A DNA stretch of 15,026 bases from IMG/VR virus record IMGVR_UViG_3300045988_095445; one strand, written 5' to 3'. The notes below the pieces were generated by a model, which made no database searches, was not told the DNA's origin, and saw only the letters and a list, made by a program, of their open reading frames with translations. The translations under genes and the position numbers were made by a program. How positions within the stretch are numbered: the stretch's first letter is position 1; every line of letters begins with the position of its first letter. This DNA is from a virus. This document shows positions 1,713-11,660 of this stretch, piece by piece.

Positions 1713-1900
1713 TTTATTATAAAAAATTGGACGAGAGAGCCAATATTGTTGGACCGATCGGAACTAGATAAAGGAAGAAAAAAAGTAGGGCCGATCGGTA
1801 TTTGGAAGAGGGCGTTATGAATTTCGGGAAAATCGCTATGAAGTTGCGTTATGGCCAAGTTGCTATGAAAATTTTGCGCTATGGTCCGATCGGGGAAATT

Positions 1901-1972
1901 CGGGCCGAGTCGCCCGCGACCGGCCCGCCCAAAATTTTGCATAAAAAAAATCTCCCCTTATGGGGAGATTTT
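1901..1972 (-). terminator. Double intrinsic terminator: a GC hairpin (1901-1927, CGGGCCG...CGGCCCG) followed by hairpin TCTCCCC-TTAT-GGGGAGA (1951-1969) flanked by A- and T-runs, so it is bidirectional.
   Basis: Perfect stems. Same architecture as the intergenic modules further right. Confidence 0.7.
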
Positions 1973-1975
1973 TCT

Positions 1976-2326
1976 TTAGTTGAGAATTATTGGATATGCC
2001 TTGCGAATAACCACCGTAACCATGGCCGGGGGAGTGTCGCACAAGAAACGGTCATTTCTGATAAAACGACCAATTCCCATATTCTGCCACAAAGTCCGGT
2101 TTACATCCTCGTATCGGAGGGTATTATACTTGGAAAGTTTGATATGCCAATCATAGATAAAGCAACCATCTTCCGGCATGGTGTAATCTGGCGCCCGCTT
2201 ATAATTTCTCGTATGTTCCGCGGCTCTGCGCTCAAGATCATTTGTCGTACCAATCTTGAGAATATAGCGCCCCTTTTTGTCGATGTAATGTCCGACATAT
2301 AGGAACTCTTTTCCTCTTGTCTGCAA
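1976..2326 (-). CDS. GIY-YIG family nuclease, small standalone domain of 116 aa.
   Basis: LYVGHY...YILKIGTTNDLERRAAEH matches GIY-(10)-YIG-(x)-R-x3-E/H, with downstream E and N (YEDVN). The track ORF starts at TTG with no good SD, so the start is uncertain. Confidence 0.65.
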   Translation of the reverse strand: MQTRGKEFLYVGHYIDKKGRYILKIGTTNDLERRAAEHTRNYKRAPDYTMPEDGCFIYDWHIKLSKYNTLRYEDVNRTLWQNMGIGRFIRNDRFLCDTPPAMVTVVIRKAYPIILN

Positions 2327-2351
2327 ACCAACTATAACTTACCTCTTTTCT

Positions 2352-2379
2352 GGTAGGGCCGGGGTAGGCCGACCCTACC
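2352..2379. terminator. GC-rich hairpin GGTAGGG...CCCTACC between gene 2383-2700 and the GIY-YIG gene.
   Basis: 7-bp stem. T-rich on the + side only, so it may act as an attenuator. Confidence 0.35.
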
Positions 2380-2382
2380 CCG

Positions 2383-2700
2383 TTATTTCTTCGGTTTACG
2401 CTTTTGCACAAGCGTCAACTCGAAACTATCCCCACCAATAGAAAACGCAATCTGTCTTTCCTTGTTAGTAATAGACAAGTCAGCGATAGAGAATTGACTG
2501 TTTTTTTCCAAAAACTCTGCCAATTCCGCAATTATACCGCCTTTCGTGGCGTTTGGCTTGCGTTGCCGTGTAGTGAACTTATATGCGGTTGGCTGTTTGC
2601 GCGTTCCAGCATGGGCAAACTTTTGAGCGATTTTCGCCTTTTCTGGCGGTAAATCGTATTCAGTCTTTTTATCAGCCTCTACCGCCTTATCATAGGCCAA
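2383..2700 (-). CDS. Hypothetical basic protein, 105 aa.
   Basis: ORF with TAA stop and SD GAGGAGG upstream. No motif recognised. Confidence 0.55.
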   Translation of the reverse strand: MAYDKAVEADKKTEYDLPPEKAKIAQKFAHAGTRKQPTAYKFTTRQRKPNATKGGIIAELAEFLEKNSQFSIADLSITNKERQIAFSIGGDSFELTLVQKRKPKK

Positions 2701-2805
2701 TAAATCTGCCTCCTCTTCCGGCGTTAATTGCAGGGCTTTATACCTTGCAATCCGTTCAGCGTCACTAATGCGACTGGATATAATATCACCCCCATATTAT
2801 AAGTT

Positions 2806-2830
2806 AGGGCGGGGATTTTCACCCCGCCCT
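2806..2830 (-). terminator. Hairpin AGGGCGGGG-ATTTTCA-CCCCGCCCT. It is nearly identical to the hairpin at 5597-5622.
   Basis: 9-bp perfect stem immediately after the stop of gene 2839-3249. Confidence 0.6.
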
Positions 2831-2838
2831 ATACGGGG

Positions 2839-3249
2839 TTACGCCATCTTAAAGAGGGACTTGCCCTTCTTCTCCGTGCAGACTACTCGACCATCGAATT
2901 TCAACTGCCGCACAAGAGCGGCGACCTTCTGGTTAGAATAGGCCGTCAGATCAGGAATAGCCTTAAAAATTTCCGTGCAGGTCACGCCATCGGTATCGGC
3001 GTCCAGACCAGCCAGATACTCCATAATCTGCTCCTTAAAATTCTCATTCTCCTGCTGGGTGGGAGTCAACTTCTTATCACCGCTGGAGCTATTCTTCTTA
3101 CGCAGAAGCTCCAGCTCATGGTCAATGACAGTAATAGCCACCTCGATGGTAGTGCCATACTTTACCTCGCCGTCAGTCAAGAGGGCCTTAATGTCCTCAA
3201 AACGCTGGGCCTTAGTAGTGCGGATTTTCTTCTCGTCCATAATATACAT
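2839..3249 (-). CDS. Hypothetical protein, 136 aa. It is driven by four tandem promoters.
   Basis: ORF with TAA stop and SD AAAGGA. The C-terminal VTCTEIFKAIPDLTAYSNQKVAALVRQLKFDGRV might be a winged-helix, but that is weak. Confidence 0.6.
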   Translation of the reverse strand: MYIMDEKKIRTTKAQRFEDIKALLTDGEVKYGTTIEVAITVIDHELELLRKKNSSSGDKKLTPTQQENENFKEQIMEYLAGLDADTDGVTCTEIFKAIPDLTAYSNQKVAALVRQLKFDGRVVCTEKKGKSLFKMA

Positions 3250-3283
3250 CCTTTCTGGTTTTTAGGACTGTCCTTGTCCTTTG

Positions 3284-3490
3284 ATTATATTGTACCACAC
3301 TATTTGGTACTTGTCAAGAGGTTTTTCAAACTTTTTTCAAGAACTTTTGCTCTTTACTTGTTTGCCCTCTCAACCTCCCTTATAGTGTAACACACTTTGG
3401 AAAGTTTGTCAAGTCCTTTTTATTTAATTTTCAAGGTACATTGCCTTGTTTTCTGTACCTATTATAGCACATCTTCAAAGGCTTGTCAAG
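3284..3490 (-). promoter_or_regulatory. Three tandem near-consensus sigma-A/sigma-70 promoters on the minus strand, each with extended -10 (TGn).
   Basis: TTGACA-17-TGgTACAAT (3289-3317), TTGACA-17-TGtTACACT (3384-3412) and TTGACA-17-TGcTATAAT (3461-3489). Spacers counted directly. Confidence 0.75.
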
Positions 3491-3560
3491 AGGTTTTTGA
3501 AAGATTTTTGAGAAATTCGCTGTCGCTGTCTGCCGTTCGTTTCTCTCACTTTCTGAATGT

Positions 3561-3760
3561 ATTTTACCACAAGCAAAAGCAGATTGCAAGCGTCAAATTG
3601 CACAAAAATTGGAATTTTGGGAGAAAGTTTTTGTGCAGAATTTTGCACAAAACGGGGCTGAAATTTTTGTGCAACATTTACAAAGAAAAACTCGGGTCGC
3701 GCCGTTCCTGCGCGACCCGCTCAAATTTTGTATAAAAAAAGAAGGGCCGAAGCCCTTCTT
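3561..3760 (-). promoter_or_regulatory. Intergenic module A. On the minus strand it runs: terminator 1 (3741-3758), GC-hairpin terminator 2 (3693-3719), palindrome TTGTGCA-N6-TGCACAA (3631-3650) plus half-sites TTGCACAA (3598) and TTGTGCAA (3666), then promoter TTGCAA-17-TGgTAAAAT (3561-3589).
   Basis: Read directly. Terminator 1 (AAAAGAAGGGCCGAAGCCCTTCTT) is identical to 6509-6531. Confidence 0.7.
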
Positions 3761-3941
3761 AACAGAAAATACAGTTATCCAGAAAATCAAACAGGTGTTC
3801 ATCCTCAATGGGAACATTTACCAGCATATTTCCATCTTCGTCAATATCATCATGACACCATCCTATACGCTCAATAATTTGAATTGCCATGTAAACGGCA
3901 TCTGCACACAGAGAAGAGGTATATACAATTTTTGTTACCAT
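3759..3941 (-). CDS. Small protein, 60 aa (MVTKIVYTSSLCADAVYMAIQIIERIGWCHDDIDEDGNMLVNVPIEDEHLFDFLDNCIFC).
   Basis: The 111-aa track ORF 3759-4094 is a fusion artefact. The real start is ATG 3941, with SD GAGGAGG 6 nt upstream, right after the TAA of the upstream gene. Confidence 0.6.
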   Translation of the reverse strand: MVTKIVYTSSLCADAVYMAIQIIERIGWCHDDIDEDGNMLVNVPIEDEHLFDFLDNCIFC

Positions 3942-3942
3942 T

Positions 3943-4134
3943 TTATTCCTCCTCGAAATCATCAACCCCATATTGTCTCTGATATTCGTCACAGTCAAAC
4001 CATGGCTCACCCAAAGAGCAACAAAGTGATTCCGTGTCAAAATCTGGACAGATAGTATCATAGATTTGTTCTGGATCCATGCCTTCCTCGGCATAATGCG
4101 GGCAACTCCACCGCATACAATGAACCTGAGACAT
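3943..4134 (-). CDS. Small acidic Cys-rich protein, 63 aa (six Cys, possible Zn-binding).
   Basis: ORF with TAA stop and SD AAAGGA. Stop-start adjacent to the 60-aa gene. Confidence 0.55.
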   Translation of the reverse strand: MSQVHCMRWSCPHYAEEGMDPEQIYDTICPDFDTESLCCSLGEPWFDCDEYQRQYGVDDFEEE

Positions 4135-4148
4135 ATTATTTCCTTTCT

Positions 4149-4176
4149 GCCGGGCGGGGCTTTAAGCCCCTACCCG
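4149..4176 (-). terminator. Hairpin CCGGGCGGGGCTT-TAA-AGCCCCTACCCGG.
   Basis: Stem GGGGCT/AGCCCC plus an outer CCGGG/CCCGG pairing, immediately downstream of the exonuclease stop. Confidence 0.5.
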
Positions 4177-4986
4177 GATAGTTGGAATTGAACGCATACT
4201 TGCGGAAAGCTGACGCTGAAAATCTGTCATAGGAGGAAATTCTCTCTTATTCTCATACAGAGCCTTTCTCATGGGCTTATGTTGACGCATACAGTACCAC
4301 ATGATTTCCGCCTCAATGAGAACATCTTCAAGCCCCGTATGACTTTCCTCAAAATCGGTATTTCCAGAGATAAACCGCCACACGATTTCCGCAGTCTTAC
4401 GAGGAACGCCATTGGCCTGGATATATCCATTTTCCTGACAGAATTTCTTATAAGTGGGCATATTGCAGATAACATCTTGTGTCATCTTCATAATGTCCCA
4501 AATTTCCACACTGTCAAACGGGAACCAGTAGCGAAACTTAGAGCAAGTGACCCATCGTTGAATGACCCGCAGAGCGTTATCGTCAAACCGGGCATTATAA
4601 GCAGCCACCTCTTTAATGCCGTATCGCTCGATAGTATCAAGCATAGCCTGCCGGATTTCATAGGTTGTAGCCATCTTACGAGTGCCGGCCCGCAATTCCT
4701 CAACATAGCGGGGGATTTTCCAATTATAATAGGCCGTCCGCATTAAATCCCGCTCGTCATTGAAAATGTCCCGATTTACAAAACTTGCAGTTTCGTAAAT
4801 ATTGCCCTTGGTATCTACTACGGCCCAGCCGCAGTCATATACCAGTACATTTGACATATCCATGCGGACACGCTCAGGAGTGATAATCTCCCCATCTTCC
4901 CCGATTTCAGCGGGAACGGTTTCGGTTAGTGTGTTGGCGGTTTCAGTGTCAACCACCAGCACATAATGTCTGCGTTTATCAATCAT
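4162..4986 (-). CDS. DEDDh-family 3'-5' exonuclease (DnaQ/RNase T-like), 274 aa.
   Basis: Exo I VLVVDTETAN, Exo II VAAYNARFDDNAL and Exo III HTGLEDVLIEAEI (H-x4-D) in canonical order. Confidence 0.75.
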   Translation of the reverse strand: MIDKRRHYVLVVDTETANTLTETVPAEIGEDGEIITPERVRMDMSNVLVYDCGWAVVDTKGNIYETASFVNRDIFNDERDLMRTAYYNWKIPRYVEELRAGTRKMATTYEIRQAMLDTIERYGIKEVAAYNARFDDNALRVIQRWVTCSKFRYWFPFDSVEIWDIMKMTQDVICNMPTYKKFCQENGYIQANGVPRKTAEIVWRFISGNTDFEESHTGLEDVLIEAEIMWYCMRQHKPMRKALYENKREFPPMTDFQRQLSASMRSIPTIRVGA

Positions 4987-5020
4987 AATCTATCAAGTCC
5001 TTTCTTCTCTTGATGGTATT

Positions 5021-5049
5021 ATTATAGCACATTTAAGGCTTGGTGTCAA
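5021..5049 (-). promoter_or_regulatory. Consensus promoter TTGACA-17-TGcTATAAT (minus strand).
   Basis: -35 at 5044-5049 and -10 at 5021-5026, spacer 17. Confidence 0.7.
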
Positions 5050-5211
5050 GAGGAAAAGGAAATTTTGTTGCGATTTATTGCAAGCTACTGGACGATGGAA
5101 TGGCCTATTCCAAAGGCGCTCGCTCGACTTATAACACAAATACCCATTTTCTTCCTTTACTTTCTAAGAGTTCGCGACCTCTTGATTTCTTGGCCTCTCC
5201 CTCCTGACATG

Positions 5212-5380
5212 ATAATAATACCATACTTTTGGGAGAATTGCAAGATGGCAAATTGCACAACTTTTTGCCACCAAAATTGTGCAACATCTACAAAGAAAAA
5301 AATTCGGCGCGCCGCGTGCGTCAGCGCGCCGCTCAAATGACAATAAAAAAATACCCCTCTCATTATTGAGAGGGGTATTT
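5212..5380 (-). promoter_or_regulatory. Intergenic module B: terminator hairpin 5353-5378, GC-hairpin terminator 5305-5331 (identical to 6461-6487), TTGCACAA (5253) and TTGTGCAA (5278), promoter TTGCAA-17-TGgTATTAT (5215-5243).
   Basis: Read directly. Confidence 0.7.
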
Positions 5381-5581
5381 TTAATATCCAATATATTCCC
5401 TGTTGATTAGTTCATCTATTCCGTATACCAGATCATCAAGAGAGATAGGAAAGTCATCATCAATTTCATTATCTTCCATATTCCTGCTAATCTGGCTTAT
5501 GAGGATTGACGCATCTCTCAAGGCTTTTTTCTCTATCGAACCGAGAACAAGCCTATTAACTTTCCGAATTTCCATTTGCAA
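5381..5581 (-). CDS. Small acidic protein, 66 aa.
   Basis: ORF with TAA stop. No promoter of its own, so it is probably co-transcribed with the upstream genes. Confidence 0.45.
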   Translation of the reverse strand: MQMEIRKVNRLVLGSIEKKALRDASILISQISRNMEDNEIDDDFPISLDDLVYGIDELINREYIGY

Positions 5582-5596
5582 AACTCCCTTTCTTTG

Positions 5597-5622
5597 CGGG
5601 GCGGGGATTTTAACCCCGCCCT
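5597..5622 (-). terminator. Hairpin GGGCGGGG-ATTTTAA-CCCCGCCC. It is a near-copy of the 2806-2830 hairpin.
   Basis: 8-bp GC stem after the stop of gene 5628-6089. Confidence 0.55.
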
Positions 5623-5627
5623 CTTAC

Positions 5628-6089
5628 TCAGTTTAGATTGTTGATATATTCGATTATGTCTGTCTCTCCTGGATTTATTGTATCTCCTAAATGCCAACCG
5701 TGCCTAATTTTATCATTATCATCAAAAAGGATAAACGGCGGTTCATAGAAACTACGGAATACACATTTGGCTTTGGTCGTTCCGTATGCTACACAATGGC
5801 ATTTATGAGCCGGGAATTTATACCTTGCAAGCCATTCCTTTTTAGCGGCTGTGACTGCTTTCTTATATTCGGGAGTGCTTTCGGGCGGTAGCCATGTAAT
5901 TACTCTAATTTCCCATCCGTTATTGATTGCCTTTAGAAGCGCATTTCTAAGAGCTTCCATGTCCCACATAGGGGCCGCGTCTCGGAATGGGGTGGGGTCT
6001 CCATTGCGGAGTTTTTCGAGCCAATTAGGGACTGCATACAAGTCCGCGATAGTTCCATCCATGTCAAAGCAGAGCATTTTTTTAGTCAT
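5628..6089 (-). CDS. HAD-superfamily hydrolase, probably a 5'(3')-deoxyribonucleotidase-like (NT5C family) nucleotidase, 153 aa.
   Basis: Motif I FDMDGTIAD (DxDGT), Ser/Thr motif (VITW), Lys (KKEW) and motif IV FDDND. The start overlaps the upstream gene end. Confidence 0.6.
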   Translation of the reverse strand: MTKKMLCFDMDGTIADLYAVPNWLEKLRNGDPTPFRDAAPMWDMEALRNALLKAINNGWEIRVITWLPPESTPEYKKAVTAAKKEWLARYKFPAHKCHCVAYGTTKAKCVFRSFYEPPFILFDDNDKIRHGWHLGDTINPGETDIIEYINNLN

Positions 6090-6095
6090 TGTATA

Positions 6096-6344
6096 TCAAT
6101 CTCCTTTTGTTTTATTATACCACTTGTTGCCTACCTTGTCAACAAGTTTTTCAAAAAAAGTTTTACGCCGACATACCTTATAAGGTATTGACATATAATC
6201 TACATAGATCAGAGGATCTTGTAAAAGCACAGTCTGTATATAAATCTCATAATTAACCGGGGTAGTAGTATGCCCGAATTGTCTATGATAAATTTCAGCT
6301 ACGGTTAAGTATTCGTTAGGCTGAATAAACTTTGAAGGTTTCAT
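6096..6344 (-). CDS. Hypothetical protein, 82 aa. Its 3' end encodes the promoter and SD for the HAD gene.
   Basis: Strong SD GGAGGGG. TGA stop 6 nt before the HAD ATG. Confidence 0.55.
   Translation of the reverse strand: MKPSKFIQPNEYLTVAEIYHRQFGHTTTPVNYEIYIQTVLLQDPLIYVDYMSIPYKVCRRKTFFEKLVDKVGNKWYNKTKGD
6114..6142 (-). promoter_or_regulatory. Consensus promoter TTGACA-17-TGgTATAAT embedded inside the coding sequence of gene 6096-6344. It drives the HAD gene.
   Basis: -35 at 6137-6142, -10 at 6114-6119, spacer 17. Confidence 0.55.
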
Positions 6345-6371
6345 TTAGTATCCCCTCCTTTTTCTGTACTA

Positions 6372-6531
6372 ATAATACCATAATTTAAGGATAATTGCAA
6401 GATGGCAAATTGCACAAGATTTCAAGACAAAAATTGTGTAGAACTTACAAATAAGAAAACTCGGCGCGCCGCGTGCGTCAGCGCGCCGTCGAATTTTTAG
6501 TATATAAAAAAGAAGGGCCGAAGCCCTTCTT
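6372..6531 (-). promoter_or_regulatory. Intergenic module C: terminator 6512-6529 (same as 3741-3758), GC hairpin 6461-6487 (same as 5305-5331), TTGCACAA (6409), TTGTGTAG (6433), promoter TTGCAA-17-TGgTATTAT (6372-6400).
   Basis: Read directly. Confidence 0.7.
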
Positions 6532-6990
6532 TTATCTTTCAGCCATATTTGAAAAATACCTTGCGACTAGTTTAACCATTTCATGAATAGATTCATCATT
6601 GTGCAAATTTTTGTAACAAATGAATCCAATTTGTCCACCATCAGAAAAAATGGGAGTAATAAACATAGATTTCCACGCTGTCGCAGGTTGGCTGATATTA
6701 CTCCATTCATCTGGTGGTATAGAAATTTTGAAAGAACTAGGCCCGCTTAAAAGTTTATCTGAATCGAAGATTGCCGCGGAAATGTGATTAACAGAAAGGG
6801 CATTTCGCATTTCGTGGGCATGGTCAACGAAAAAAGATAGTGGAGAATATTTCTTGAAGGCTATACAGTCGCCATCAAGAAAAATTTCCATAGGGTCGCC
6901 TTCTCTAATTCGCATACTCCTACGAATTTCTCTAGGAATAACAATACGCCCTAGGTCATCAATATGTCGAACAATACCAACAGCTCTCAT
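6532..6990 (-). CDS. spoVT: SpoVT/AbrB-family regulator. It has an N-terminal swapped-hairpin DNA-binding domain and a SpoVT-like (GAF-type) C-terminal domain, 152 aa.
   Basis: GIVRHIDDLGRIVIPREIRRSMRIREGDPMEIFLDGDCIAFKKYSPLS is near-identical in pattern to B. subtilis SpoVT (GIVRRIDDLGRVVIPKEIRRTLRIREGDPLEIFVD...KKYSPIS). The C-terminal ...PIFSDGGQIGFICY...LVARYFSNMAE resembles SpoVT ...PIVANGDPIGAVVIF...FLARQME. Confidence 0.85.
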   Translation of the reverse strand: MRAVGIVRHIDDLGRIVIPREIRRSMRIREGDPMEIFLDGDCIAFKKYSPLSFFVDHAHEMRNALSVNHISAAIFDSDKLLSGPSSFKISIPPDEWSNISQPATAWKSMFITPIFSDGGQIGFICYKNLHNDESIHEMVKLVARYFSNMAER

Positions 6991-6999
6991 TTTTTTATC

Positions 7000-7033: not shown

Positions 7034-7044
7034 GCCTCCTTTCC

Positions 7045-7443: not shown

Positions 7444-7501
7444 TTCTAAAACTCCCTTTCTTATTTTAATTTATTTTTGGGGCTGCCCCTTCCATAGTCT
7501 T

Positions 7502-7530
7502 ATTGTACCACAGAAGGGGCAATTTGTCAA
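7502..7530 (-). promoter_or_regulatory. Promoter TTGACA-17-TGgTACAAT.
   Basis: -35 at 7525-7530, -10 at 7502-7507. Confidence 0.7.
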
Positions 7531-7537
7531 CCCCTTT

Positions 7538-7768
7538 TTACAAGGAAAGTAAATCCATCATAGTCATTTCATCAACCGCCTTATCGGCTTCCTCATCGAA
7601 AATACCCTTGATAATATCGGCCGCGTCATCGGGAGTACATATGCCGATCCGCAGGAATTTCCCCAAAGACTGGAGCATTGCCTGTGCTGCTTCTCCTGGG
7701 CAGAACTCCTCCATGGTCTTATGCAGAAGAATAATCCCCTGTCTATCCTGCTCAGTCATTCTATACAT
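7538..7768 (-). CDS. Hypothetical acidic protein, 76 aa.
   Basis: ORF with TAA stop. Confidence 0.5.
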   Translation of the reverse strand: MYRMTEQDRQGIILLHKTMEEFCPGEAAQAMLQSLGKFLRIGICTPDDAADIIKGIFDEEADKAVDEMTMMDLLSL

Positions 7769-7819
7769 AGCAATATTTCCTTTCTGGTTTAATGAGTTTT
7801 CCTTCTCTTTACATTATTG

Positions 7820-7848
7820 ATTATACCACTGTTTAAGCGGTTTGTCAA
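7820..7848 (-). promoter_or_regulatory. Promoter TTGACA-17-TGgTATAAT.
   Basis: -35 at 7843-7848, -10 at 7820-7825. Confidence 0.7.
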
Positions 7849-7852
7849 CCCT

Positions 7853-7990
7853 TTACATCAAATTTTTTGCCAAATATGCGAACATTAGAATTTCTGCGGC
7901 AAACATGATTTCAAGCCGAATACAGCCTTTTTGAGCAGCCGCCATTAACTGCCATGCAAGGCAGGCCACAAACGCAATCAAAACAATCAT
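7853..7990 (-). CDS. Possible 45-aa hydrophobic peptide (MIVLIAFVACLAWQLMAAAQKGCIRLEIMFAAEILMFAYLAKNLM).
   Basis: ORF below the track cutoff. The SD is 22 nt from the ATG and the ORF lies between a terminator and the next promoter, so it may not be expressed. Confidence 0.2.
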   Translation of the reverse strand: MIVLIAFVACLAWQLMAAAQKGCIRLEIMFAAEILMFAYLAKNLM

Positions 7991-8023
7991 TGTGAAGGTA
8001 GTTATATATATACTCCTTTTCTG

Positions 8024-8050
8024 GTTAAGAGGGTTTATACCCTCTTAACC
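8024..8050 (-). terminator. Hairpin GGTTAAGAGGG-TTTATA-CCCTCTTAACC overlapping the stop of gene 8035-8268.
   Basis: 11-bp perfect stem with the TAA stop in the loop. Confidence 0.55.
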
Positions 8051-8268
8051 TCGATAATCTCCATATCGAAATCTTCCCAATATGCGCCCATGAGAAGGTC
8101 ATGCCGCAAGTCCCCTTCATTCTCATAGTCCATATCTTCCAGAATTTGGCTCCACTCGCTTTCGGAATACTGGGCCTTGAGCCAGTCCCATCCCGCATGG
8201 CGTGCGCCAGTTTCAGTATCAGAAACGCCGATAATCTTTTCTCTACTGTCAGCCATTACCAGATACAT
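8035..8268 (-). CDS. Hypothetical acidic Trp-rich protein, 77 aa.
   Basis: ORF with SD AAAAGGAGA and TAA stop. Confidence 0.55.
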   Translation of the reverse strand: MYLVMADSREKIIGVSDTETGARHAGWDWLKAQYSESEWSQILEDMDYENEGDLRHDLLMGAYWEDFDMEIIEVKRV

Positions 8269-8321
8269 AACTCATTCTCCTTTTGTTTCGAGGGCTTTTG
8301 TTCTCCCCTCTTGATGATACA

Positions 8322-8505
8322 AGTATAACAGATAGCAGATAGAAAGTCAAGCAATTTTGGGAAAAAATCTTCCGTCAGATTGCACAACAATTCGAGCCTA
8401 AAATTGTGCAAATTGCCTCTTGATAAAAAATTCCGGCCGCGCCTGTGGTGCACGGCCGGGCGAACGAATAAAAAAAAAGAACCTCCTGAATTTCAGGAGG
8501 TCATT
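8322..8505 (-). promoter_or_regulatory. Intergenic module D: terminator 8481-8504 (ACCTCCTGA-ATT-TCAGGAGGT), GC hairpin 8433-8459, TTGTGCAA (8404), TTGCACAA (8380), promoter TTGACT-17-TGtTATACT (8322-8350).
   Basis: Read directly. Confidence 0.7.
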
Positions 8506-8543
8506 AATTTCTGCATACCAACAACTTCCTTTCTTTTGAGAAG

Positions 8544-8777
8544 TCAATCGGCATTTTCAACAATCTTTAATCCGTTTGCTTGGATAATTTTCATAGCTTC
8601 TTCAAGCGAGGAATCAACCGATCCGCAGTCGATACAGATATATTTTCTGCCATCTTTTACCATAGTAGTAAAATAGTATTCTTGGCCAGAAACAAGGCCC
8701 ATCTACTCTCGCAGTCTTACTGGAATCATGATACGCCCACTTGAATCTAATTTCCTTGAGAAAGTAGTTTCTTGCAT
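8544..8777 (-). pseudogene. AbrB-fold (swapped-hairpin) gene with one in-frame TAG at 8703-8705. It is either an amber-recoded gene (one 77-residue protein) or a nonsense pseudogene.
   Basis: MQETTFSRKLDSSGRIMIPVRLRE-[TAG]-MGLVSGQEYYFTTMVKDGRKYICID... aligns colinearly with AbrB RKVDELGRVVIPIELRR-T-LGIAEKDALEIYVDD, with the TAG occupying one residue position. There is no SD upstream of the ATG. Stop is TGA at 8544. Confidence 0.55.
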
Positions 8778-9014
8778 TTTGATAAATAAATTCTAGTGAC
8801 CTAGGCTCGTGCGAAAAACGACTCCATCACGGGAATCGCCGATTTAGAACAATCGGAAGGAACATTTACCACTCGCAAGGCATTTTCTGGCAGAACTGAG
8901 ACATAGGGCAATTTTACAAGAATCCTAGTTCAAACAGAACTCTAAAATAACCGCGAGTGCTTTCAGCACTTCTAAGGTCATTAGAAAAACTCCTTTCTTT
9001 ATTTTTCTATAATT

Positions 9015-9043
9015 ATTATAATATATTTTTTTGAAAAAATCAA
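9015..9043 (-). promoter_or_regulatory. Promoter TTGATT-17-TATAAT, followed by SD AAAGGAG and an 18-aa ORF (8923-8979) containing hairpin GAAGTGC-TGAAA-GCACTTC, then about 200 nt untranslated.
   Basis: -35 at 9038-9043, -10 at 9015-9020. Leader-peptide-like arrangement upstream of the AbrB-like gene. Confidence 0.45.
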
Positions 9044-9182
9044 TAGGGCCGGCATTACGCCAGCCCTAATCTCTGTAACCAAACCAGATGGTATTTACCA
9101 ATGTGAAGTAGAACTGTGCCATATCCCTTATTTGTCCAAACAGTGGAACCGATAGGATATGTATGCGGTAAACGCTCAATAC

Positions 9183-9398
9183 TCACTTTAGTTCCACCTC
9201 CTCGAAAGCTCCAATTTTTAGCAGATAATTATATAAGGCTCTATCTTGTTTGTCGCCGGTATTAAAATCAAGAGTACGAACACAGCCGGTAACATTGGAA
9301 TTAAGAGGATGATTCAAACACCAACCAGCCATATTACAAATTGTGTCTCCAAACTCCGCAGATTTTTCTACACTTTCAAATTTAATAACAGCAATCAT
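9183..9398 (-). CDS. Hypothetical protein, 71 aa.
   Basis: Strong SD AAAGGAGGAAT. TGA stop. Confidence 0.55.
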   Translation of the reverse strand: MIAVIKFESVEKSAEFGDTICNMAGWCLNHPLNSNVTGCVRTLDFNTGDKQDRALYNYLLKIGAFEEVELK

Positions 9399-9421
9399 AT
9401 TTATTCCTCCTTTTTATCATG

Positions 9422-9450
9422 GGGAGTGGAGGTTTGTGGCCTCCACTCCC
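9422..9450 (-). terminator. Hairpin GGGAGTGGAGG-TTTGTGG-CCTCCACTCCC between co-oriented genes. It may act as an attenuator.
   Basis: 11-bp stem. The next gene's SD follows immediately with no promoter. Confidence 0.5.
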
Positions 9451-9460
9451 GCAAGTTTTC

Positions 9461-9700
9461 TTAATCATCTACATAAATGATTAAATTGTTATCTCTTGCC
9501 TCAATGCCGGTTACCTGAAGTCCTAGAACCCATTCCTTAGATATCTCGATTACGTCTCCTCCCAGAGTTATTCTACCATCAGGTAATTCATGGTAATGAG
9601 CTTGGGTATTCTTATTGATAATTTCAAATCCCTCCCCGTCAAAGAACATAGTATCTTCTGCAAGCGGAGAAAGTAACCAAGCAACCATATCTAAAGTCAT
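9461..9700 (-). CDS. Hypothetical acidic protein, 79 aa.
   Basis: ORF with SD AAAGGAAG and TAA stop. Confidence 0.55.
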   Translation of the reverse strand: MTLDMVAWLLSPLAEDTMFFDGEGFEIINKNTQAHYHELPDGRITLGGDVIEISKEWVLGLQVTGIEARDNNLIIYVDD

Positions 9701-9754
9701 TTTTTTTACTTCCTTTCAAATTCTTTTTGTGGCCTGTCCCTTTGGACAAGTATA

Positions 9755-9955
9755 TAATAACACATGGCAAAAGGAATGTCAAGTAATTTCGGGAGAAAAA
9801 CTTTCGTCGAATTGCACAGACTTTCGGTCATATAATTGTTGAAATTGCCGAATAAATAAAAATTCGGGCCGCGGCGCACGCTGGCGGCCCGGCGAAAAGT
9901 CAATATGGAAAAGTGCATAAAAATGACTGGCAATCTTTGTGTAGATTGCCAGTCA
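9755..9955 (-). promoter_or_regulatory. Intergenic module E: terminator 9925-9953 (11-bp stem), GC hairpin 9865-9891, TTGCACAG (9812), promoter TTGACA-17-TGtTATTAT (9755-9783).
   Basis: Read directly. Confidence 0.7.
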
Positions 9956-9967
9956 AGTATTATTCCT

Positions 9968-10201
9968 TTACAGCTCCATGGTTTCCATGAGATAGCCCGT
10001 GCCCATCGGCACCTCCCGCAGATTGCTGGGACTTATACGCAACTTATATTTCCTATTGATTTTATTCGCCGCACTTGTCTTATCTCTCGCTTGGACAATT
10101 ACTGGTATATGGAGTTTATTTAGAGTGGGCTTATTAAGACTGAAATATCCCATCTCTCTGCGCTTGCGGCCCATGGCGTCGATATAAGTCCCTCTATACA
10201 T
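9968..10201 (-). CDS. Hypothetical basic protein, 77 aa.
   Basis: SD GGAGG 5 nt before the ATG. TAA stop followed by a terminator. Confidence 0.55.
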   Translation of the reverse strand: MYRGTYIDAMGRKRREMGYFSLNKPTLNKLHIPVIVQARDKTSAANKINRKYKLRISPSNLREVPMGTGYLMETMEL

Positions 10202-10212
10202 TTTTCCTCCTA

Positions 10213-10359
10213 TTATTTAGTCATGAGAACGAACATATTATATTCGCTGTGCTGTGGGTTTGGCTCACAGTTATCTGCCACTATATCAGCCCAACTAAGA
10301 ACTGTCCAGAGTAGGAGAGCGGCACAAATGCCGCCTCCTATCCGCTTAATAATTCTCAT
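10213..10359 (-). CDS. Small membrane or secreted peptide, 48 aa (MRIIKRIGGGICAALLLWTVLSWADIVADNCEPNPQHSEYNMFVLMTK).
   Basis: Its ATG overlaps the TGA of the upstream gene (ATGA). The N-terminal hydrophobic segment suggests a membrane location. It is below the track cutoff. Confidence 0.4.
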   Translation of the reverse strand: MRIIKRIGGGICAALLLWTVLSWADIVADNCEPNPQHSEYNMFVLMTK

Positions 10360-10658
10360 TTCCATTTCTTTGCCTCCTGTTCTTTAACCCATTCAGTACC
10401 GATTGTATCTCCGACCATAGCAACCTTATATTCGTCTTCGCTTACAATTCTGGTATGCAGATTGCTATTGATAAACTTTCTATTGATATAAGCCCAGTGT
10501 GGCATATAGGCCACTCGCATGGCATTAAAAGCATCCAGGTCTAAGATGATGCCGTCCTCTACCTCTGCGGAACGCACATTCATCTTATACCGCAAAAGTT
10601 TAATAAATTCACGCTTTCTAAAAGTAGGCCCAACGAACCATTTAATATAATTGTTCAT
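10356..10658 (-). CDS. Hypothetical protein, 100 aa.
   Basis: ORF with SD GGGGAGAAAGGA and TGA stop. Confidence 0.55.
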   Translation of the reverse strand: MNNYIKWFVGPTFRKREFIKLLRYKMNVRSAEVEDGIILDLDAFNAMRVAYMPHWAYINRKFINSNLHTRIVSEDEYKVAMVGDTIGTEWVKEQEAKKWK

Positions 10659-10704
10659 AGTCTTTTATCCTTTCTCCCCGTATAGCCGTTAGGTCAGCTT
10701 CTTT

Positions 10705-10851
10705 TTAATCTACGATTTCTCCACTGGATAAATCCACAATCCAATGATTAGGATTGACTATCTCGTGACTGACCTTCCATCTTGCCATTGAAAGGGTGGA
10801 TGGTTCATAATAGCGCATTTTCTCATTGGCTAAAACTTGTAACTGATACAT
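10705..10851 (-). CDS. Small protein, 48 aa (MYQLQVLANEKMRYYEPSTLSMARWKVSHEIVNPNHWIVDLSSGEIVD).
   Basis: SD AAAGGGG 8 nt upstream. It is the first gene of a four-gene unit. Below the track cutoff. Confidence 0.35.
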   Translation of the reverse strand: MYQLQVLANEKMRYYEPSTLSMARWKVSHEIVNPNHWIVDLSSGEIVD

Positions 10852-10880
10852 ATAGTATGCCCCTTTCTTTTAATTATTAT

Positions 10881-10917
10881 AACCCTGCCTTGCCTTGTGT
10901 TTTGCAAGGCAGGGTTT
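10881..10917 (-). terminator. Hairpin AACCCTGCCTTGC-N-GCAAGGCAGGGTT.
   Basis: 13-bp stem after the stop of gene 10926-11300. Confidence 0.65.
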
Positions 10918-10925
10918 ATAAACTG

Positions 10926-11300
10926 TTATCCTCTAATTTCTTCTTCTTGGGTCTTTGTCGCCCAATCAAAAGAGGTACGAACATCGGAAGGTCTGCGGAA
11001 TTGCTCTGCTTCGGCCTCTGTCCCGCCTAATGCCATAGCATAGGCTTTCCAGTCAACCGTTCCTTTTGCGGTAGTTTCTTTATATACCACCGCTTTCGCC
11101 TTACTTTGCATTTGTACCGTGCCATATAGATAACTTGTTTTGTCCGTAGCCTTAAAAGCCTTACCTAATCTGGAGAATAGCTCTTTAGCCTTAGCCTTAG
11201 CTGCTTTCTCCGCCGCCTCCGCCGCAGACTTAGCCATCTTAGCGGCCATATACTCCATAATAATGGCTCGATCTTCATTGGTAAAATCAATCTTTTTCAT
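10926..11300 (-). CDS. Hypothetical Ala/Lys-rich protein, 124 aa. The true start is the internal ATG at 11300, not 11363.
   Basis: SD AAAGGGAG lies inside the track's N-terminal extension, so the track start is wrong. Contains coiled-coil-like AAKMAKSAAEAAEKAAKAKAKE. Confidence 0.55.
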   Translation of the reverse strand: MKKIDFTNEDRAIIMEYMAAKMAKSAAEAAEKAAKAKAKELFSRLGKAFKATDKTSYLYGTVQMQSKAKAVVYKETTAKGTVDWKAYAMALGGTEAEAEQFRRPSDVRTSFDWATKTQEEEIRG

Positions 11301-11353
11301 ACTCTTTTGACTCCCTTTCTTTTTGTGGTGTGGTTCTCTTTTGTTCTGTCTGT

Positions 11354-11479
11354 ATTGTATCAAACCTTTAGCAGTTTGTCAATACCTTTTTTGAAATTTT
11401 TTTAATTTTCAAAGTGCCGTGCTTTTGTCTCTGTCCTACTGGACAAGTCCAGTTTACCACCAAAATGCTCACTTGTCAA
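11354..11479 (-). promoter_or_regulatory. Two tandem promoters: TTGACA-17-TGaTACAAT (11354-11382) and TTGACA-17-TGgTAAACT (11451-11479).
   Basis: Spacers counted directly. Confidence 0.65.
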
Positions 11480-11504
11480 TAGTTTTTTTGAAATTTCTTT
11501 CTCT

Positions 11505-11570
11505 CTCTTTTGCACAAAATAAATAACATCTTGTTGTGCAGTTTGCACAAATCCTTTACGCGCGCGTATT
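11505..11570 (-). promoter_or_regulatory. Partial module F: TTGCACAA (11510), palindrome TTGTGCA-GTT-TGCACAA (11534-11550) and short GC palindrome TACGCGCGCGTA (11557-11568).
   Basis: Read directly. Confidence 0.55.
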
Positions 11571-11574
11571 CCTT

Positions 11575-11660
11575 TAGGGGGCGTGCTTTCTTGCTTTCGT
11601 ACTTTAACGAGTGAAAGAGGCCAACTACACTTCAATACTTTACCATGTGAAAGAGGGGCG
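11575..11660. repeat. Two ~22-nt direct repeats, TACTTTA(A/C)C(G/C)(A/G)(G/T)GTGAAAGAGG, bracketed by GGGGCGTG at both ends.
   Basis: Copies at about 11599-11621 and 11634-11656. GGGGCGTG at 11576 and 11656. Confidence 0.4.

What the first reader, a model, noticed from the sequence alone, without database searches (positions are those of the whole stretch)
1840..11580. Repeated ~150-200 bp intergenic module (double terminator + palindromic operators + promoter) flanking nearly every small gene; sub-elements are swapped between copies
Seven intergenic regions share one architecture: about 1840-1975, 3561-3760, 5212-5380, 6372-6531, 8322-8505, 9755-9955 and 11505-11570. On the minus strand each runs as follows: hairpin + T-run, conserved linker (ATAAAAAAA...CAAAT), a second GC-rich hairpin + AATTTTTTTCTTTGTA, TTGTGCA/TGCACAA half-sites or full palindromes, then a promoter.

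Identical sub-elements occur in different combinations. Terminator 3738-3760 equals 6509-6531. GC hairpin 5305-5331 equals 6461-6487. Hairpin 2806-2830 approximately equals 5597-5622. Stem 672-697 approximately equals 11754-11778.

That mosaicism is what recombination at conserved promoter/stem-loop cassettes would produce, as described for the PeSL modules that shuffle hypervariable early genes in T4-type phages. Here it appears in a Firmicutes-type element. The small ORFs between modules are candidates for swappable accessory or anti-defence cargo.
Basis: seen in the sequence. Interest (0 to 1): 0.8.

Follow-up and report, generated by a model that had tools for sequence, protein, structure and literature searches.

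The report
Shuffling terminator-operator-promoter cassettes in gut phage
The early-gene region of a large uncultured gut phage is built from repeated "terminator, palindromic operator, promoter" cassettes that look like one shared on/off switch for many small genes and that also serve as the points where related phages have deleted, replaced and moved those genes.

Summary
The repeated module is real. Five intergenic regions (M2-M6) carry the full set, read on the minus strand:
- a terminator hairpin
- a 27-nt GC hairpin with a U-run
- a 32-bp palindrome, TTGCACAA-N16-TTGTGCAA
- a sigma-A-type promoter

M1 has only the two hairpins. M7 has only operator and promoters. There are seven modules for about 23 genes, not one per gene.

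The GC hairpin shows compensatory changes in 7 of 10 pairs.

The palindrome recurs 2-7 times in 26 of 28 related IMG/VR phage loci and in far more distant phages. It sits 8-9, 18-19 or 29-30 nt upstream of the -35 box, which is helical phasing. I read it as a protein-binding site; the binding protein is not identified.

- a hyperplastic interval of 642-5379 nt holding 43 ORF families
- clean cassette indels ending inside modules
- one chimeric module
- one short gene-conversion patch

Breakpoint enrichment in the modules is modest, about 2-fold (p=0.02). Plain promoters and intercistronic hairpins are also breakpoints.

Verdict: this is a functional analogue of the T4-type PeSL cassettes in an unrelated phage lineage, probably TAG-recoded and Clostridia-infecting, with an added clade-wide operator. 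It is a new variant of a known kind.

The parts
11510..11541 (-). M7 operator (1 mismatch), overlapped by a second palindrome TTGTGCAAACTGCACAA at 11534-11550. This is the start of the block. There is no hairpin upstream.
11451..11479 (-). M7 promoter TTGACA-17-TAAACT (TG-extended), 30 nt after the operator. A second promoter lies at 11354-11382 (TTGACA-17-TACAAT).
9924..9955 (-). M6 first terminator hairpin (13 bp stem) plus U-run, ending the upstream unit.
9865..9891 (-). M6 GC hairpin (27 nt) plus AAUUUUU.
9812..9843 (-). M6 operator copy with 3 mismatches: TTCAACAA-N16-CTGTGCAA.
9754..9782 (-). M6 promoter TTGACA-17-TATTAT (TG-extended), 29 nt after the operator. The TCCCGAAA box is at 9786-9797.
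8480..8502 (-). M5 first terminator hairpin plus U-run.
8433..8459 (-). M5 GC hairpin (10 bp stem, 7 nt loop) plus AAUUUUUU.
8380..8411 (-). M5 operator, exact TTGCACAA-N16-TTGTGCAA. Similarity to L004-L007 ends inside it.
8322..8350 (-). M5 promoter TTGACT-17-TATACT (TG-extended), 29 nt after the operator. The TCCCAAAA box is at 8354-8365.
6510..6531 (-). M4 first terminator hairpin, identical to that of M2.
6462..6488 (-). M4 GC hairpin, identical to that of M3.
6410..6441 (-). M4 operator (2 mismatches).
6372..6400 (-). M4 promoter TTGCAA-17-TATTAT (TG-extended), 9 nt after the operator.
5347..5382 (-). M3 first terminator hairpin (16 bp stem) plus U-run.
5305..5331 (-). M3 GC hairpin. It differs from the orthologous hairpin of L001 while the flanks are identical, which is a gene-conversion patch.
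5253..5284 (-). M3 operator, exact.
5215..5243 (-). M3 promoter TTGCAA-17-TATTAT (TG-extended), 9 nt after the operator. The TCCCAAAA box lies in its spacer at 5226-5237.
3739..3760 (-). M2 first terminator hairpin.
3693..3719 (-). M2 GC hairpin plus AGUUUUU.
3590..3674 (-). M2 operator cluster. It holds an exact palindrome at 3643-3674, a second palindrome TTGTGCAA-N4-TGCACAA at 3631-3650, the TCCCAAAA box at 3614-3625, and a proximal TTGTGCAA half-site 8 nt from the -35.
3561..3589 (-). M2 promoter TTGCAA-17-TAAAAT (TG-extended).
3289..3489 (-). Three tandem operator-less promoters ahead of the winged-helix gene: consensus or near-consensus ones at 3461-3489 and 3289-3317, and a weaker one (10 of 12 matches) at 3384-3412. 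The copy number of this promoter array varies in relatives.
1946..1973 (-). M1 first terminator hairpin plus U-run. This is the end of the block.
1902..1926 (-). M1 GC hairpin, with no operator or promoter after it. It is the junction of the 882-893 bp two-gene cassette that L004-L007 and L027 have here.
5021..5049 (-). Operator-less consensus promoter of the 274-aa gene. Similar ones lie at 6114-6142, 7502-7530 and 7820-7848. Such promoters are also breakpoints in relatives.
5597..5622 (-). Intercistronic GC hairpin with no U-run, directly before the next ribosome-binding site. Paralogues lie at 2806-2830 and 4152-4175. Position 5597 is a similarity breakpoint in 7 comparisons.
8544..8777 (-). 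Small AbrB/MazE/MraZ-like gene (77 codons) with one in-frame TAG. It is a candidate operator-binding protein.
6532..6990 (-). 152-aa protein with a SpoVT/AbrB-type N-terminal DNA-binding domain. It is a candidate operator-binding protein.
2839..3249 (-). 136-aa protein with a predicted C-terminal winged-helix domain, conserved in all close relatives. It is a candidate operator-binding protein.

Best explanation
Window 1840-11600 is the early, standard-code gene block of a 100-160 kb uncultured gut phage. The phage probably infects Clostridia and reads TAG as glutamine. All genes in the block are transcribed on the minus strand.

The block is cut into insulated transcription units by a repeated cassette with these parts, in order:
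- (i) The intrinsic terminator of the upstream unit.
- (ii) A second, GC-rich intrinsic terminator of fixed geometry (10-bp stem, 7-nt loop, U-run), which shields the next promoter from read-through.
- (iii) 19-22 nt further on, a 32-bp palindrome, TTGCACAA-N16-TTGTGCAA.
- (iv) A host sigma-A promoter with an extended -10, placed 8-9, 18-19 or 29-30 nt after the palindrome. This puts the palindrome centre near -60, -70 or -81, on one face of the helix relative to RNA polymerase.
- (v) A structured leader.

I infer that a dimeric or tetrameric DNA-binding protein sits on the palindrome and touches RNA polymerase, so that all these units are switched together. These promoters are already near consensus. 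Shut-off by over-stabilising the polymerase, as phi29 p4 does at promoter A2c, therefore seems more likely than activation. Candidate binders encoded in the block are the two AbrB/SpoVT-like proteins and a winged-helix protein. None is demonstrated.

The cassettes are repeated in direct orientation. They also act as substrates for recombination, short-patch gene conversion and microhomology-guided deletion, so whole units are lost, replaced or moved while each keeps its own terminator, operator and promoter. This is the T4-type PeSL principle in an unrelated lineage.

Shown by computation: the repeated architecture, the hairpin covariation, the conservation and phasing of the palindrome, and the module-bounded indels, chimera and conversion patch. 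Inferred: promoter and terminator activity, protein binding, the direction of regulation, early timing, and the causal role of the modules in recombination.
For: Architecture and excess over chance.

GC hairpin:
- 19 distinct copies show 98.4% of cells paired, and 7 of 10 pairs have changes on both sides. No shuffle out of 500 reached the observed pairing or covariation score, and slid-register controls pair only 28-42%.
- The hairpin-to-operator distance is 19-22 nt in all 28 distinct copies.

Operator:
- It occurs 2-7 times in 26 of 28 related loci, giving 75 distinct instances with one layout.
- A truncated IMG/VR scan for the bare pattern pulled at least 18 loci that encode distant homologues (28-48% identity) of the 274-aa gene. 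In these the palindrome again sits just upstream of TTGACA/TAGACA-17-TGnTATAAT.
- Over 110 clusters, the operator-to-(-35) distance is 8-9 nt in 48, 18-19 nt in 21 and 29-30 nt in 10. That is 72% of clusters in 6 of 60 possible offsets.
- In the complete genome of the distant relative phAss-1, 9 of 11 half-sites lie in the last 16 kb.

Early, standard-code block:
- Consensus sigma-70-type promoters are present.
- The main conserved block genes have no in-frame TAG, whereas the flanking FolD-like gene has 4.
- phAss-1 is filed in the 'Caudoviricetes code 15 clade'.

Recombination:
- The variable interval spans 642-5379 nt with 43 ORF families.
- The HAD-like gene sits in three different contexts.
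- Clean indels have both ends in modules or promoters.
- Junction sequences, including the L016 chimera, are documented.
- The conversion patch is shown.
- Breakpoints are enriched in modules (10 of 39 against 12.8% expected, p=0.02) and depleted inside genes (15 of 39 against 61% expected, p=0.003).

Candidate DNA-binding proteins.
Against: - There are no expression, termination or binding data. The phage is uncultured.
- Several operator-bearing promoters are followed by strong operator-less promoters ahead of the same genes (M2, M3). Control at the operator alone would therefore not silence those genes.
- Module enrichment among breakpoints is modest, and the counts come from related genomes, so they are not independent.
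- Recombinants that cut genes are removed by selection. Some clustering of breakpoints in spacers is therefore expected without any causal role for the modules.
- The M1 cassette junction shares only 5-6 nt (GGCGG), which is microhomology rather than homologous recombination.
- The two-gene cassette at M1 is as diverged between clades as its flanks, so there is no sign of recent horizontal transfer of a cassette.
- No homologue of the candidate regulators was found in phAss-1, although it has the operator-promoter unit.
- The phasing analysis assumes promoters that were predicted by a consensus score.
Confidence: 0.7

Rival explanations
1. The modules are purely regulatory. They are conserved because they form the cis-elements of one regulon. 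The gene shuffling happens by ordinary illegitimate recombination anywhere, and selection simply keeps those recombinants whose junctions fall between genes. The modules mark the breakpoints but do not cause them.
For: - Breakpoints are as frequent at plain promoters, simple terminators, intercistronic hairpins and gene ends as in the seven modules.
- Module enrichment is only about 2-fold.
- The M1 junction shows 5-6 nt of microhomology.
- The operator is conserved far beyond the range where recombination between copies could matter.
Against: - The chimeric module in L016 has its crossover inside shared sequence, with 58 nt of overlap.
- The 1118-bp indel between L003 and L027 ends in two hairpin-operator modules.
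- A 27-nt conversion patch copied M4's hairpin into M3 with no change to the flanks.
- Two clades show absence of the same cassette with the junction at the same hairpin base.
- All of these require copy-to-copy interaction.
Confidence: 0.2
2. The module is a selfish, non-autonomous mobile element (MITE-like) that has inserted itself into intergenic spacers. The promoter and terminator features are incidental.
For: - There are multiple copies of 150-200 bp confined to spacers.
- Sub-elements are identical between some copies.
Against: - All copies have the orientation of transcription, and each is positioned precisely between a stop codon and the next ribosome-binding site.
- Reading the module ends shows no terminal inverted repeats and no target-site duplications.
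- Copies at orthologous positions are retained across relatives that share only 65-78% nucleotide identity.
- The operator is helically phased with the promoter.
- No transposase was found in the block.
Confidence: 0.03
3. It is an integron-like system. The palindromes or hairpins are attC-like recombination sites for a site-specific recombinase that inserts and excises gene cassettes.
For: - Gene cassettes are bounded by imperfect palindromes and hairpins.
- The same cassette is present or absent in different genomes.
- One gene family occupies three positions.
Against: - The junctions lie at different places in the module: the base of the hairpin, after the U-run, in the left half-site, at the right half-site, and at the -10. 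A site-specific enzyme would cut at one position.
- No integrase or recombinase family was found among the block proteins.
- Each cassette carries its own promoter, unlike integron cassettes.
Confidence: 0.02
4. The repeats result from one recent tandem duplication of a gene-plus-spacer segment, or from an assembly artefact.
For: M3 and M4 share 84% identity over 119 nt.
Against: - The genes between modules belong to different families, with only the AbrB-like family occurring twice.
- The same architecture is present in 28 independently assembled contigs and in MAG contigs.
Confidence: 0.01

Closest known systems
PeSL (promoter-early stem-loop) cassettes of T4-type phages (Arbiol et al. 2010, PMC2839356; Comeau et al. 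2014, PMC4122927)
   Same: - Both are composite motifs of about 100-200 bp made of a strong sigma-70-type early promoter plus a stem-loop terminator.
- Both occur in many copies concentrated in a hyperplastic region full of small ORFans.
- In both, indels and replacements between close relatives are bordered by the motifs and leave chimeric motifs.
- In both, each shuffled unit brings its own promoter and terminator.
   Different: - The phage lineage and host are unrelated: a large gut phage of probable Clostridia with probable TAG=Gln recoding, not a T4-like myovirus of Gram-negative bacteria.
- The stem-loop is a separate GC hairpin of fixed geometry upstream of the promoter, and it is doubled by the upstream unit's own terminator.
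- A 32-bp palindromic operator, helically phased with the promoter and conserved far beyond the family, sits between hairpin and promoter. PeSLs have only an AT-rich tract there.
- Mini-circles have not been looked for.
phi29 protein p4 sites at promoters A2b/A2c/A3
   Same: - Both have an inverted repeat with half-sites about two helical turns apart (phi29: 15-bp spacer; here 16 bp).
- In both, the repeat lies upstream of sigma-A promoters in a Firmicute phage.
- In both, it is positioned on the polymerase face of the helix.
- At near-consensus promoters such a contact represses. At weak promoters it activates.
   Different: - The half-site sequence is different.
- No p4 family match was found among 20 block proteins scanned against Pfam.
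- There are 5-7 sites per genome, spread over many transcription units, rather than one switch region.
SPO1 host-takeover module
   Same: Both are a dense array of small early genes of a large Firmicute phage, each short unit having its own very strong sigma-A promoter and terminator.
   Different: - SPO1 has no shared operator.
- As far as I know, no cassette shuffling at the regulatory elements has been described for SPO1.
Stoperators of cluster A mycobacteriophages
   Same: In both, one repressor-type site is repeated many times in the short intergenic spacers of a phage genome.
   Different: Stoperators are short, asymmetric, oriented with transcription, and act on elongating polymerase throughout the genome. 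Here the site is a 32-bp palindrome upstream of promoters, confined to one block.
Integron gene cassettes with attC sites
   Same: Both have small promoter-proximal gene cassettes bounded by imperfect palindromes, with presence/absence variation.
   Different: - No integrase was found.
- The junctions are heterogeneous.
- Each cassette has its own promoter and terminators.

Membership tests
PeSL regulatory cassettes (T4-type phages) | The motif contains a strong sigma-70-like early promoter. | tested here: met
   Met in silico only. TG-extended promoters with 9-12 of 12 consensus matches are present in M2-M7. Promoter activity was not measured.
PeSL regulatory cassettes (T4-type phages) | The motif contains a stable stem-loop that acts as a terminator or attenuator for upstream transcription. 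| tested here: met
   Met in silico only. The GC hairpin plus U-run has 7 of 10 covarying pairs. Fold z-scores are -4.8 to -8.5. Termination was not measured.
PeSL regulatory cassettes (T4-type phages) | There are many copies, concentrated in hyperplastic regions upstream of ORFans. | tested here: met
   There are 5-7 copies within 9.7 kb and none in up to 10 kb of flank in the relatives. The anchor-to-anchor interval varies from 642 to 5379 nt and holds 43 ORF families. Most cargo has no Pfam or PHROG match.
PeSL regulatory cassettes (T4-type phages) | Indels and replacements between closely related phages are bordered by the motifs, leaving a single chimeric motif. | tested here: met
   See the L016 chimera, the L003/L027 1118-bp indel, the M1 cassette indel and the window/L004 replacement. 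Enrichment is modest.
PeSL regulatory cassettes (T4-type phages) | Recombination between neighbouring motifs yields encapsidated mini-circles. | not testable with these tools
   This needs PCR or read-level data from phage DNA.
PeSL regulatory cassettes (T4-type phages) | The motifs occur in T4-like myovirus genomes. | tested here: not met
   The nearest catalogued relatives are phAss-1 ('Caudoviricetes code 15 clade', described as siphovirus-like in PMC10607447) and Enterococcus phages of about 140 kb. Close copies sit in Oscillospiraceae and Eubacterium MAG bins.
phi29 p4-type transcriptional switch | An inverted repeat with half-sites about two turns apart lies upstream of sigma-A promoters, in helical phase with them. 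| tested here: met
   The spacer is an invariant 16 bp. Distances to the -35 are 8-9, 18-19 or 29-30 nt in 79 of 110 clusters.
phi29 p4-type transcriptional switch | A p4-family protein is encoded by the phage. | tested here: not met
   No p4 family hit was found among 20 block proteins scanned against Pfam. The rest of the genome is not in the window.
Integron attC cassettes | An integron integrase lies next to the array. | tested here: not met
   No recombinase family was found among the block proteins. Only the window's block was scanned.
Integron attC cassettes | Recombination occurs at one fixed position of the repeat. | tested here: not met
   The junctions lie at five different places in the module.
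MITE-like mobile element | The element has terminal inverted repeats and target-site duplications, and inserts in either orientation. | tested here: not met
   All copies are co-oriented with transcription. Reading the module ends and junctions shows no terminal inverted repeats or target-site duplications. No formal search for either was run.
Cluster A stoperators | The sites are short, asymmetric, co-oriented with transcription and spread genome-wide. | tested here: not met
   The site here is a 32-bp palindrome upstream of promoters and confined to one block.

The most novel reading that the evidence does not exclude
The palindrome TTGCACAA-N16-TTGTGCAA defines an early-gene regulon shared by a broad, undescribed group of gut phages related to the 'code 15' (TAG=Gln) clade. 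Its regulator is the small AbrB-like protein encoded in the block.

That gene is the clearest case in the block of a conserved gene with an in-frame TAG, and it has exactly one. The TAG sits at any of three alternative glutamine codons in 21 of 27 relatives. Full-length regulator would therefore be made only once the phage's suppressor tRNA is active. On this reading, the switch of genetic code directly times the shut-off (or switch) of the early promoters.
Probability: 0.12. Interest if true: 0.85.

Novelty: new variant of a known kind. Interest (0 to 1): 0.6.

Why it matters
PeSL-type 'mobile regulatory cassettes' have been described only for T4-like phages of Gram-negative bacteria. A library search found the term only in the two defining papers and in papers citing them. 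Finding the same principle built from different parts in an unrelated, uncultured gut phage lineage suggests it is a general, convergent way for large lytic phages to keep a pool of exchangeable early accessory genes.

The added 32-bp operator is conserved more deeply than the proteins around it and is helically phased with the promoters. That has three practical consequences:
- It gives a concrete, testable handle on early-gene regulation in phages that cannot yet be grown.
- It is a sequence tag for locating the early or host-takeover region in metagenomic phage contigs.
- It yields a set of compact, insulated terminator-operator-promoter parts for Firmicute synthetic biology.

The paper describing the only catalogued relative does not mention promoters, terminators or repeats.

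Tried and rejected
- Megablast of the block against 50,697 phage records found no match.
- Scans for tRNA/tmRNA and Rfam families at E<=1 found nothing relevant, so the hairpins are not a known RNA family.
- A full-text search for the half-site sequences returned only primer lists and was uninformative.
- A gene-adjacency conservation table per junction was confounded by ATG-only ORF calling, spurious ORFs inside modules and AbrB paralogy. I did not use it as evidence.
I used it only for the loci that also encode homologues of block proteins.
- I tested whether the two-gene cassette at M1 was recently transferred between clades. It is as diverged as its flanks, so it was not. Loss at the same junction, possibly independently in the two clades, is the simpler reading.
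- I tried to pick the operator-binding protein by co-occurrence. tblastn of the winged-helix and small AbrB-like proteins against catalogued phages gave one hit and no hit respectively, and neither was found in phAss-1. The result is inconclusive.
- The fold search for the winged-helix protein gave only weak matches (best E 5e-3), good for the domain class only.
- Tandem duplication, MITE, integron and assembly-artefact readings were considered and rejected. See the rival explanations.

Full report
WHAT THE WINDOW IS

The window has three parts. A block at about 1840-11600 has 40-50% G+C. Its flanks have 27-38%. All credible genes of the block lie on the minus strand, so I read everything on that strand.

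There are about 23 small genes. Few match a known family:
- a T5orf172 domain protein (1976-2326)
- a 274-aa protein of PHROG 20187, annotated as an exodeoxyribonuclease in an Enterococcus phage (4162-4986)
- a HAD/deoxyribonucleotidase-like protein (5628-6089)
- a 152-aa protein with a SpoVT/AbrB N-terminal domain (6532-6990; PDB 2w1t, E 1.5e-21)
- a 77-codon AbrB/MazE/MraZ-like gene (8544-8777)

These assignments rest. There are no tRNA genes and no Rfam matches.

The flanks contain genes interrupted by TAG. The FolD-like gene has four in-frame TAGs under a TAG-sense reading. The two I examined align with ordinary residues in relatives.

Yes, in its core.

On the minus strand, M2 (3561-3760), M3 (5212-5380), M4 (6372-6531), M5 (8322-8505) and M6 (9755-9955) each read as follows:
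- a hairpin plus U-run
- a short linker
- a 27-nt GC hairpin plus (A/G)(A/G)UUUUU
- a 19-22 nt gap
- TTGCACAA-N16-TTGTGCAA
- a TG-extended sigma-70-type promoter

The palindrome occurs 5 times at 2 mismatches or fewer, with none in 200 shuffles. M6 has a copy with 3 mismatches. Terminator-like and promoter-like sites are about 3-fold and 1.7-fold over shuffles, and the eight best promoters are all on the minus strand of the block. Each module folds into two tandem hairpins, with z-scores of -4.8 to -8.5.

Three corrections are needed:
- M1 (1840-1975) has only the two hairpins, and M7 (11505-11570) has only operator and promoters. They are the end and the start of the block.
- Seven modules bound about 23 genes, so it is not 'nearly every gene'.
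- There are also about nine strong promoters without an operator, at 3289-3489 (three), 5021-5049, 6114-6142, 7502-7530, 7820-7848 and 11354-11382, plus a weaker one at 9015-9043.

RELATIVES

The 274-aa protein retrieved 28 IMG/VR loci from contigs of 12-164 kb, most of them 55 kb or longer. Two contigs of about 148 kb sit in Oscillospiraceae and Eubacterium MAG bins. The spread of nucleotide similarity is as follows:
- L001 is 96% identical and collinear with the window.
- L004-L007 are about 95% identical, with replaced segments.
- L002, L003 and L027 are 77-87% identical.
- L008-L026 are 65-78% identical.

Catalogued phages are only distant relatives. Enterococcus phages of about 140 kb share 38% protein identity, and phAss-1 shares 30%. 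phAss-1 is filed under 'Caudoviricetes code 15 clade'. Its paper predicts Clostridia/Eubacteriales hosts and never mentions promoters, terminators or repeats (PMC10607447).

ANATOMY ACROSS RELATIVES

The palindrome is present 2-7 times in every locus except the partial L023 and the distant L028. There are 95 instances, 75 of them distinct, with one layout.

The GC hairpin always has a 10-bp stem and a 7-nt loop, and it lies 19-22 nt before the palindrome. Across 19 distinct copies, 98.4% of cells pair and 7 of 10 pairs show changes on both sides. No shuffle out of 500 reached the observed pairing or covariation score, and slid-register controls pair only 28-42%. It is therefore a selected structure. 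With its U-run, it is most simply read as an intrinsic terminator.

The palindrome is much older than this family. A truncated IMG/VR scan for the bare pattern pulled at least 18 loci that encode 28-48%-identical homologues of the 274-aa protein. There the palindrome again sits directly before TTGACA/TAGACA-17-TGnTATAAT.

I clustered the instances at 75% identity into 110 clusters and measured the gap from the palindrome to the -35:
- 8-9 nt in 48 clusters
- 18-19 nt in 21 clusters
- 29-30 nt in 10 clusters

That is 72% of clusters in 6 of 60 possible offsets, spaced by about one helical turn. In the window the gaps are 9 nt (M3, M4), 8 nt (the proximal half-site of M2), 29 nt (M5, M6) and 30 nt (M7). 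The centre of the palindrome therefore lies near -60, -70 or -81.

The extended consensus is TTGCACAAA(t)(t)...(a)(a)TTTGTGCAA, with AT-rich spacer ends. In the window's family a TCCCRAAA box follows 17-20 nt after the palindrome, wherever the promoter lies.

In the complete phAss-1 genome, 9 of 11 half-sites lie in the last 16 kb, next to the homologue of the 274-aa gene. In the relatives with 10-kb flanks, no palindrome lies outside the G+C-richer block.

EVIDENCE FOR SHUFFLING AT THE MODULES

1. Between two conserved anchors, the stop of the small AbrB-like gene and the start of the 274-aa gene, the interval ranges from 642 to 5379 nt. It holds 43 ORF families over 27 loci, with 0-3 palindromes and 1-9 strong promoters.

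2. The HAD-like gene sits before the 274-aa gene in the window, after it in L010-type genomes, and after the T5orf172 gene in L008.

3. Clean events between close relatives are documented:
   - An 882-893 bp two-gene cassette is present in L004-L007 and L027 and absent in the window, L001, L002 and L003. In both clades the junction lies at the first 5-6 nt (GGCGG) of the M1 GC hairpin.
   - An 1118-bp unit (promoter, two genes, terminator, GC hairpin, operator) is present in L027 and absent in L003, with both ends in hairpin-operator modules.
   - L016 has one module made of the hairpin and palindrome of one L010 module and the promoter of another, joined at TTGTGCAA. This removes 1743 bp.
   - Window-versus-L004 identity ends after the left half-site of M5.
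   - Deletions between two plain promoters also occur: 3314 bp in L025, and 183 bp in L017, which removes one of the three tandem promoters.

4. Gene conversion is visible. M3 of the window and M3 of L001 are identical on both sides, but they differ at about 12 of the 27 hairpin positions. The window's M3 hairpin equals M4's hairpin in both genomes.

5. In window coordinates there are 39 distinct similarity breakpoints against the relatives. Ten fall in the seven modules (12.8% expected, p=0.02). Fifteen fall deep inside genes (61% expected, p=0.003). Fourteen fall at gene ends, plain promoters or the intercistronic hairpins.

The enrichment is real but modest, and the comparisons are not independent.

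The two-gene cassette at M1 is as diverged between clades as its flanks. Old presence followed by losses at the same junction, possibly independent in the two clades, is more likely than recent transfer.

HOW IT MOST LIKELY WORKS

The following are shown by computation:
- a repeated, co-oriented cassette
- a hairpin under structural selection
- a palindrome of fixed spacer that is helically phased with consensus-type promoters and confined to one block
- copy-to-copy exchange among the cassettes

The rest is inferred.

The block is the early region. It has host-type promoters and standard-code genes in a phage whose flanking genes need TAG read-through. The phAss-1 paper's introduction states that recoded stops are found mainly in late genes.

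Each unit is insulated by the upstream unit's terminator plus its own GC terminator.

A dimeric or tetrameric protein binds the palindrome and contacts RNA polymerase from one face of the helix. These promoters are already close to consensus. I therefore consider repression by over-stabilisation, as phi29 p4 does at promoter A2c (my own knowledge), somewhat more likely than activation. The geometry alone would also fit a class-I activator.

Three candidate binders are encoded in the block. None is demonstrated.
- the 152-aa SpoVT/AbrB-like protein
- the 77-aa AbrB-like protein
- the 136-aa protein whose AlphaFold model (pLDDT 84) has a C-terminal winged-helix domain matching ArsR, MarR, Fur and Z-alpha domains at weak E-values

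Because the cassettes are direct repeats, recombination, short-patch conversion and microhomology events between them remove, replace or move whole units without breaking genes or regulation.

COMPARISON WITH WHAT IS KNOWN

The closest known system is the PeSL cassette of T4-type phages. I read its definition in PMC2839356 and PMC4122927.

Four defining features are met here in silico:
- a strong early promoter
- a stem-loop terminator
- concentration in a hyperplastic ORFan region
- indels bordered by the motifs, with chimeric motifs left behind

Mini-circles cannot be tested with these tools. The lineage criterion is not met. The element therefore works like a PeSL but is not a member of that family. 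Its distinctive addition is the phased 32-bp operator with its fixed-geometry GC hairpin.

It resembles phi29 p4 sites in geometry only. It fails the tests for integron attC sites, MITEs and mycobacteriophage stoperators.

Within the searchable library, the PeSL concept appears only in the T4-type papers and in papers citing them.

NOVELTY AND CAVEATS

This is a new variant of a known kind.

The caveats are these:
- Nothing here measures transcription, termination, binding or recombination.
- Promoters were called by a consensus score.
- The instance counts include related sequences, even after clustering.
- The IMG/VR pattern scan was truncated.
- Host assignment rests on MAG binning and on a distant relative's prediction.
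- The operator-less promoters that follow some modules (M2, M3) are not explained by a simple one-operator switch.

Noticed in passing
window 8544-8777 (minus strand): The small AbrB/MazE/MraZ-like gene carries exactly one in-frame TAG, at codon 25. In relatives the single TAG lies at codon 25, 32 or 40, and each of these positions is Gln in the other genomes. 21 of 27 loci have one TAG. The main conserved block genes (274-aa exonuclease-like, HAD-like, T5orf172, winged-helix and others) have none, although a few other ORF families in the same scan also showed in-frame stops and were not examined. This suggests TAG=Gln decoding, and possibly translation of this DNA-binding protein only once suppression is active.
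   Followed up: partly
window 13248-14033 and 14020-14352 (minus strand): The FolD-like gene is intact only if TAG is read as sense (4 in-frame TAGs; the two examined align with ordinary residues in relatives). The neighbouring ORF has 6. The distant relative phAss-1 is classified in the 'Caudoviricetes code 15 clade' and carries Sup-CTA tRNAs. The window's phage is therefore probably TAG-recoded outside the block.
   Followed up: partly
window 1-166: There are five copies of a 27-nt repeat, ATTTCATGGTATTCTGACAATACTATG, spaced 24-44 nt apart. The contigs of L001 and L003 both end in this array. It could be an iteron-type origin, a packaging or terminal repeat, or simply an assembly break.
   Followed up: no
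window 586-602, 1280-1296, 1754-1770, and 1350-1405 / 1639-1694: The motif CCGATCGG(GTCTAGATA) recurs, and a unit of about 290 bp is duplicated at 77% identity. Both lie in an apparently non-coding stretch of about 600 bp just downstream of the block. Their function is unknown.
   Followed up: no
window 1800-1890 (minus strand, directly after M1): There are five short repeats of CATAGCG/CATAACG at spacings of 11-20 nt, where the other modules have the operator.
   Followed up: no
window 2806-2830, 4152-4175, 5597-5622: There are three paralogous GC hairpins (GGGCGGGG...CCCCGCCC) with no U-run, each placed directly before the ribosome-binding site of the next gene. They may be RNA processing or stabilising sites. 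Position 5597 is a similarity breakpoint in 7 comparisons.
   Followed up: partly
window 3289-3489; L010 11828-12012 versus L017: Three tandem operator-less promoters precede the winged-helix gene; two are consensus or near-consensus and the middle one matches 10 of 12. The number of copies in this array differs between relatives (three or four), and one 183-bp copy is missing in L017.
   Followed up: partly
window 1840-11600 versus flanks; same in L002-L027: In every relative the operator-bearing block is 8-15 percentage points richer in G+C than its flanks. This is unexplained. It could reflect codon or recoding constraints, or a different history for the early genes.
   Followed up: partly
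window 5050-5214 (minus strand): About 165 nt separate the M3 operator-bearing promoter from the next consensus promoter at 5021-5049, and they contain no convincing ORF. The module promoter may drive a non-coding leader or a small RNA.
   Followed up: no
window 3614-3625, 5226-5237, 8354-8365, 9786-9797: A TCCCRAAA box lies 17-20 nt after the palindrome, whether the -35 is before or after it. In phAss-1 a similar TCCCGA box lies inside the spacer, directly before TTGTGCAA. It may be a second recognition element.
   Followed up: partly
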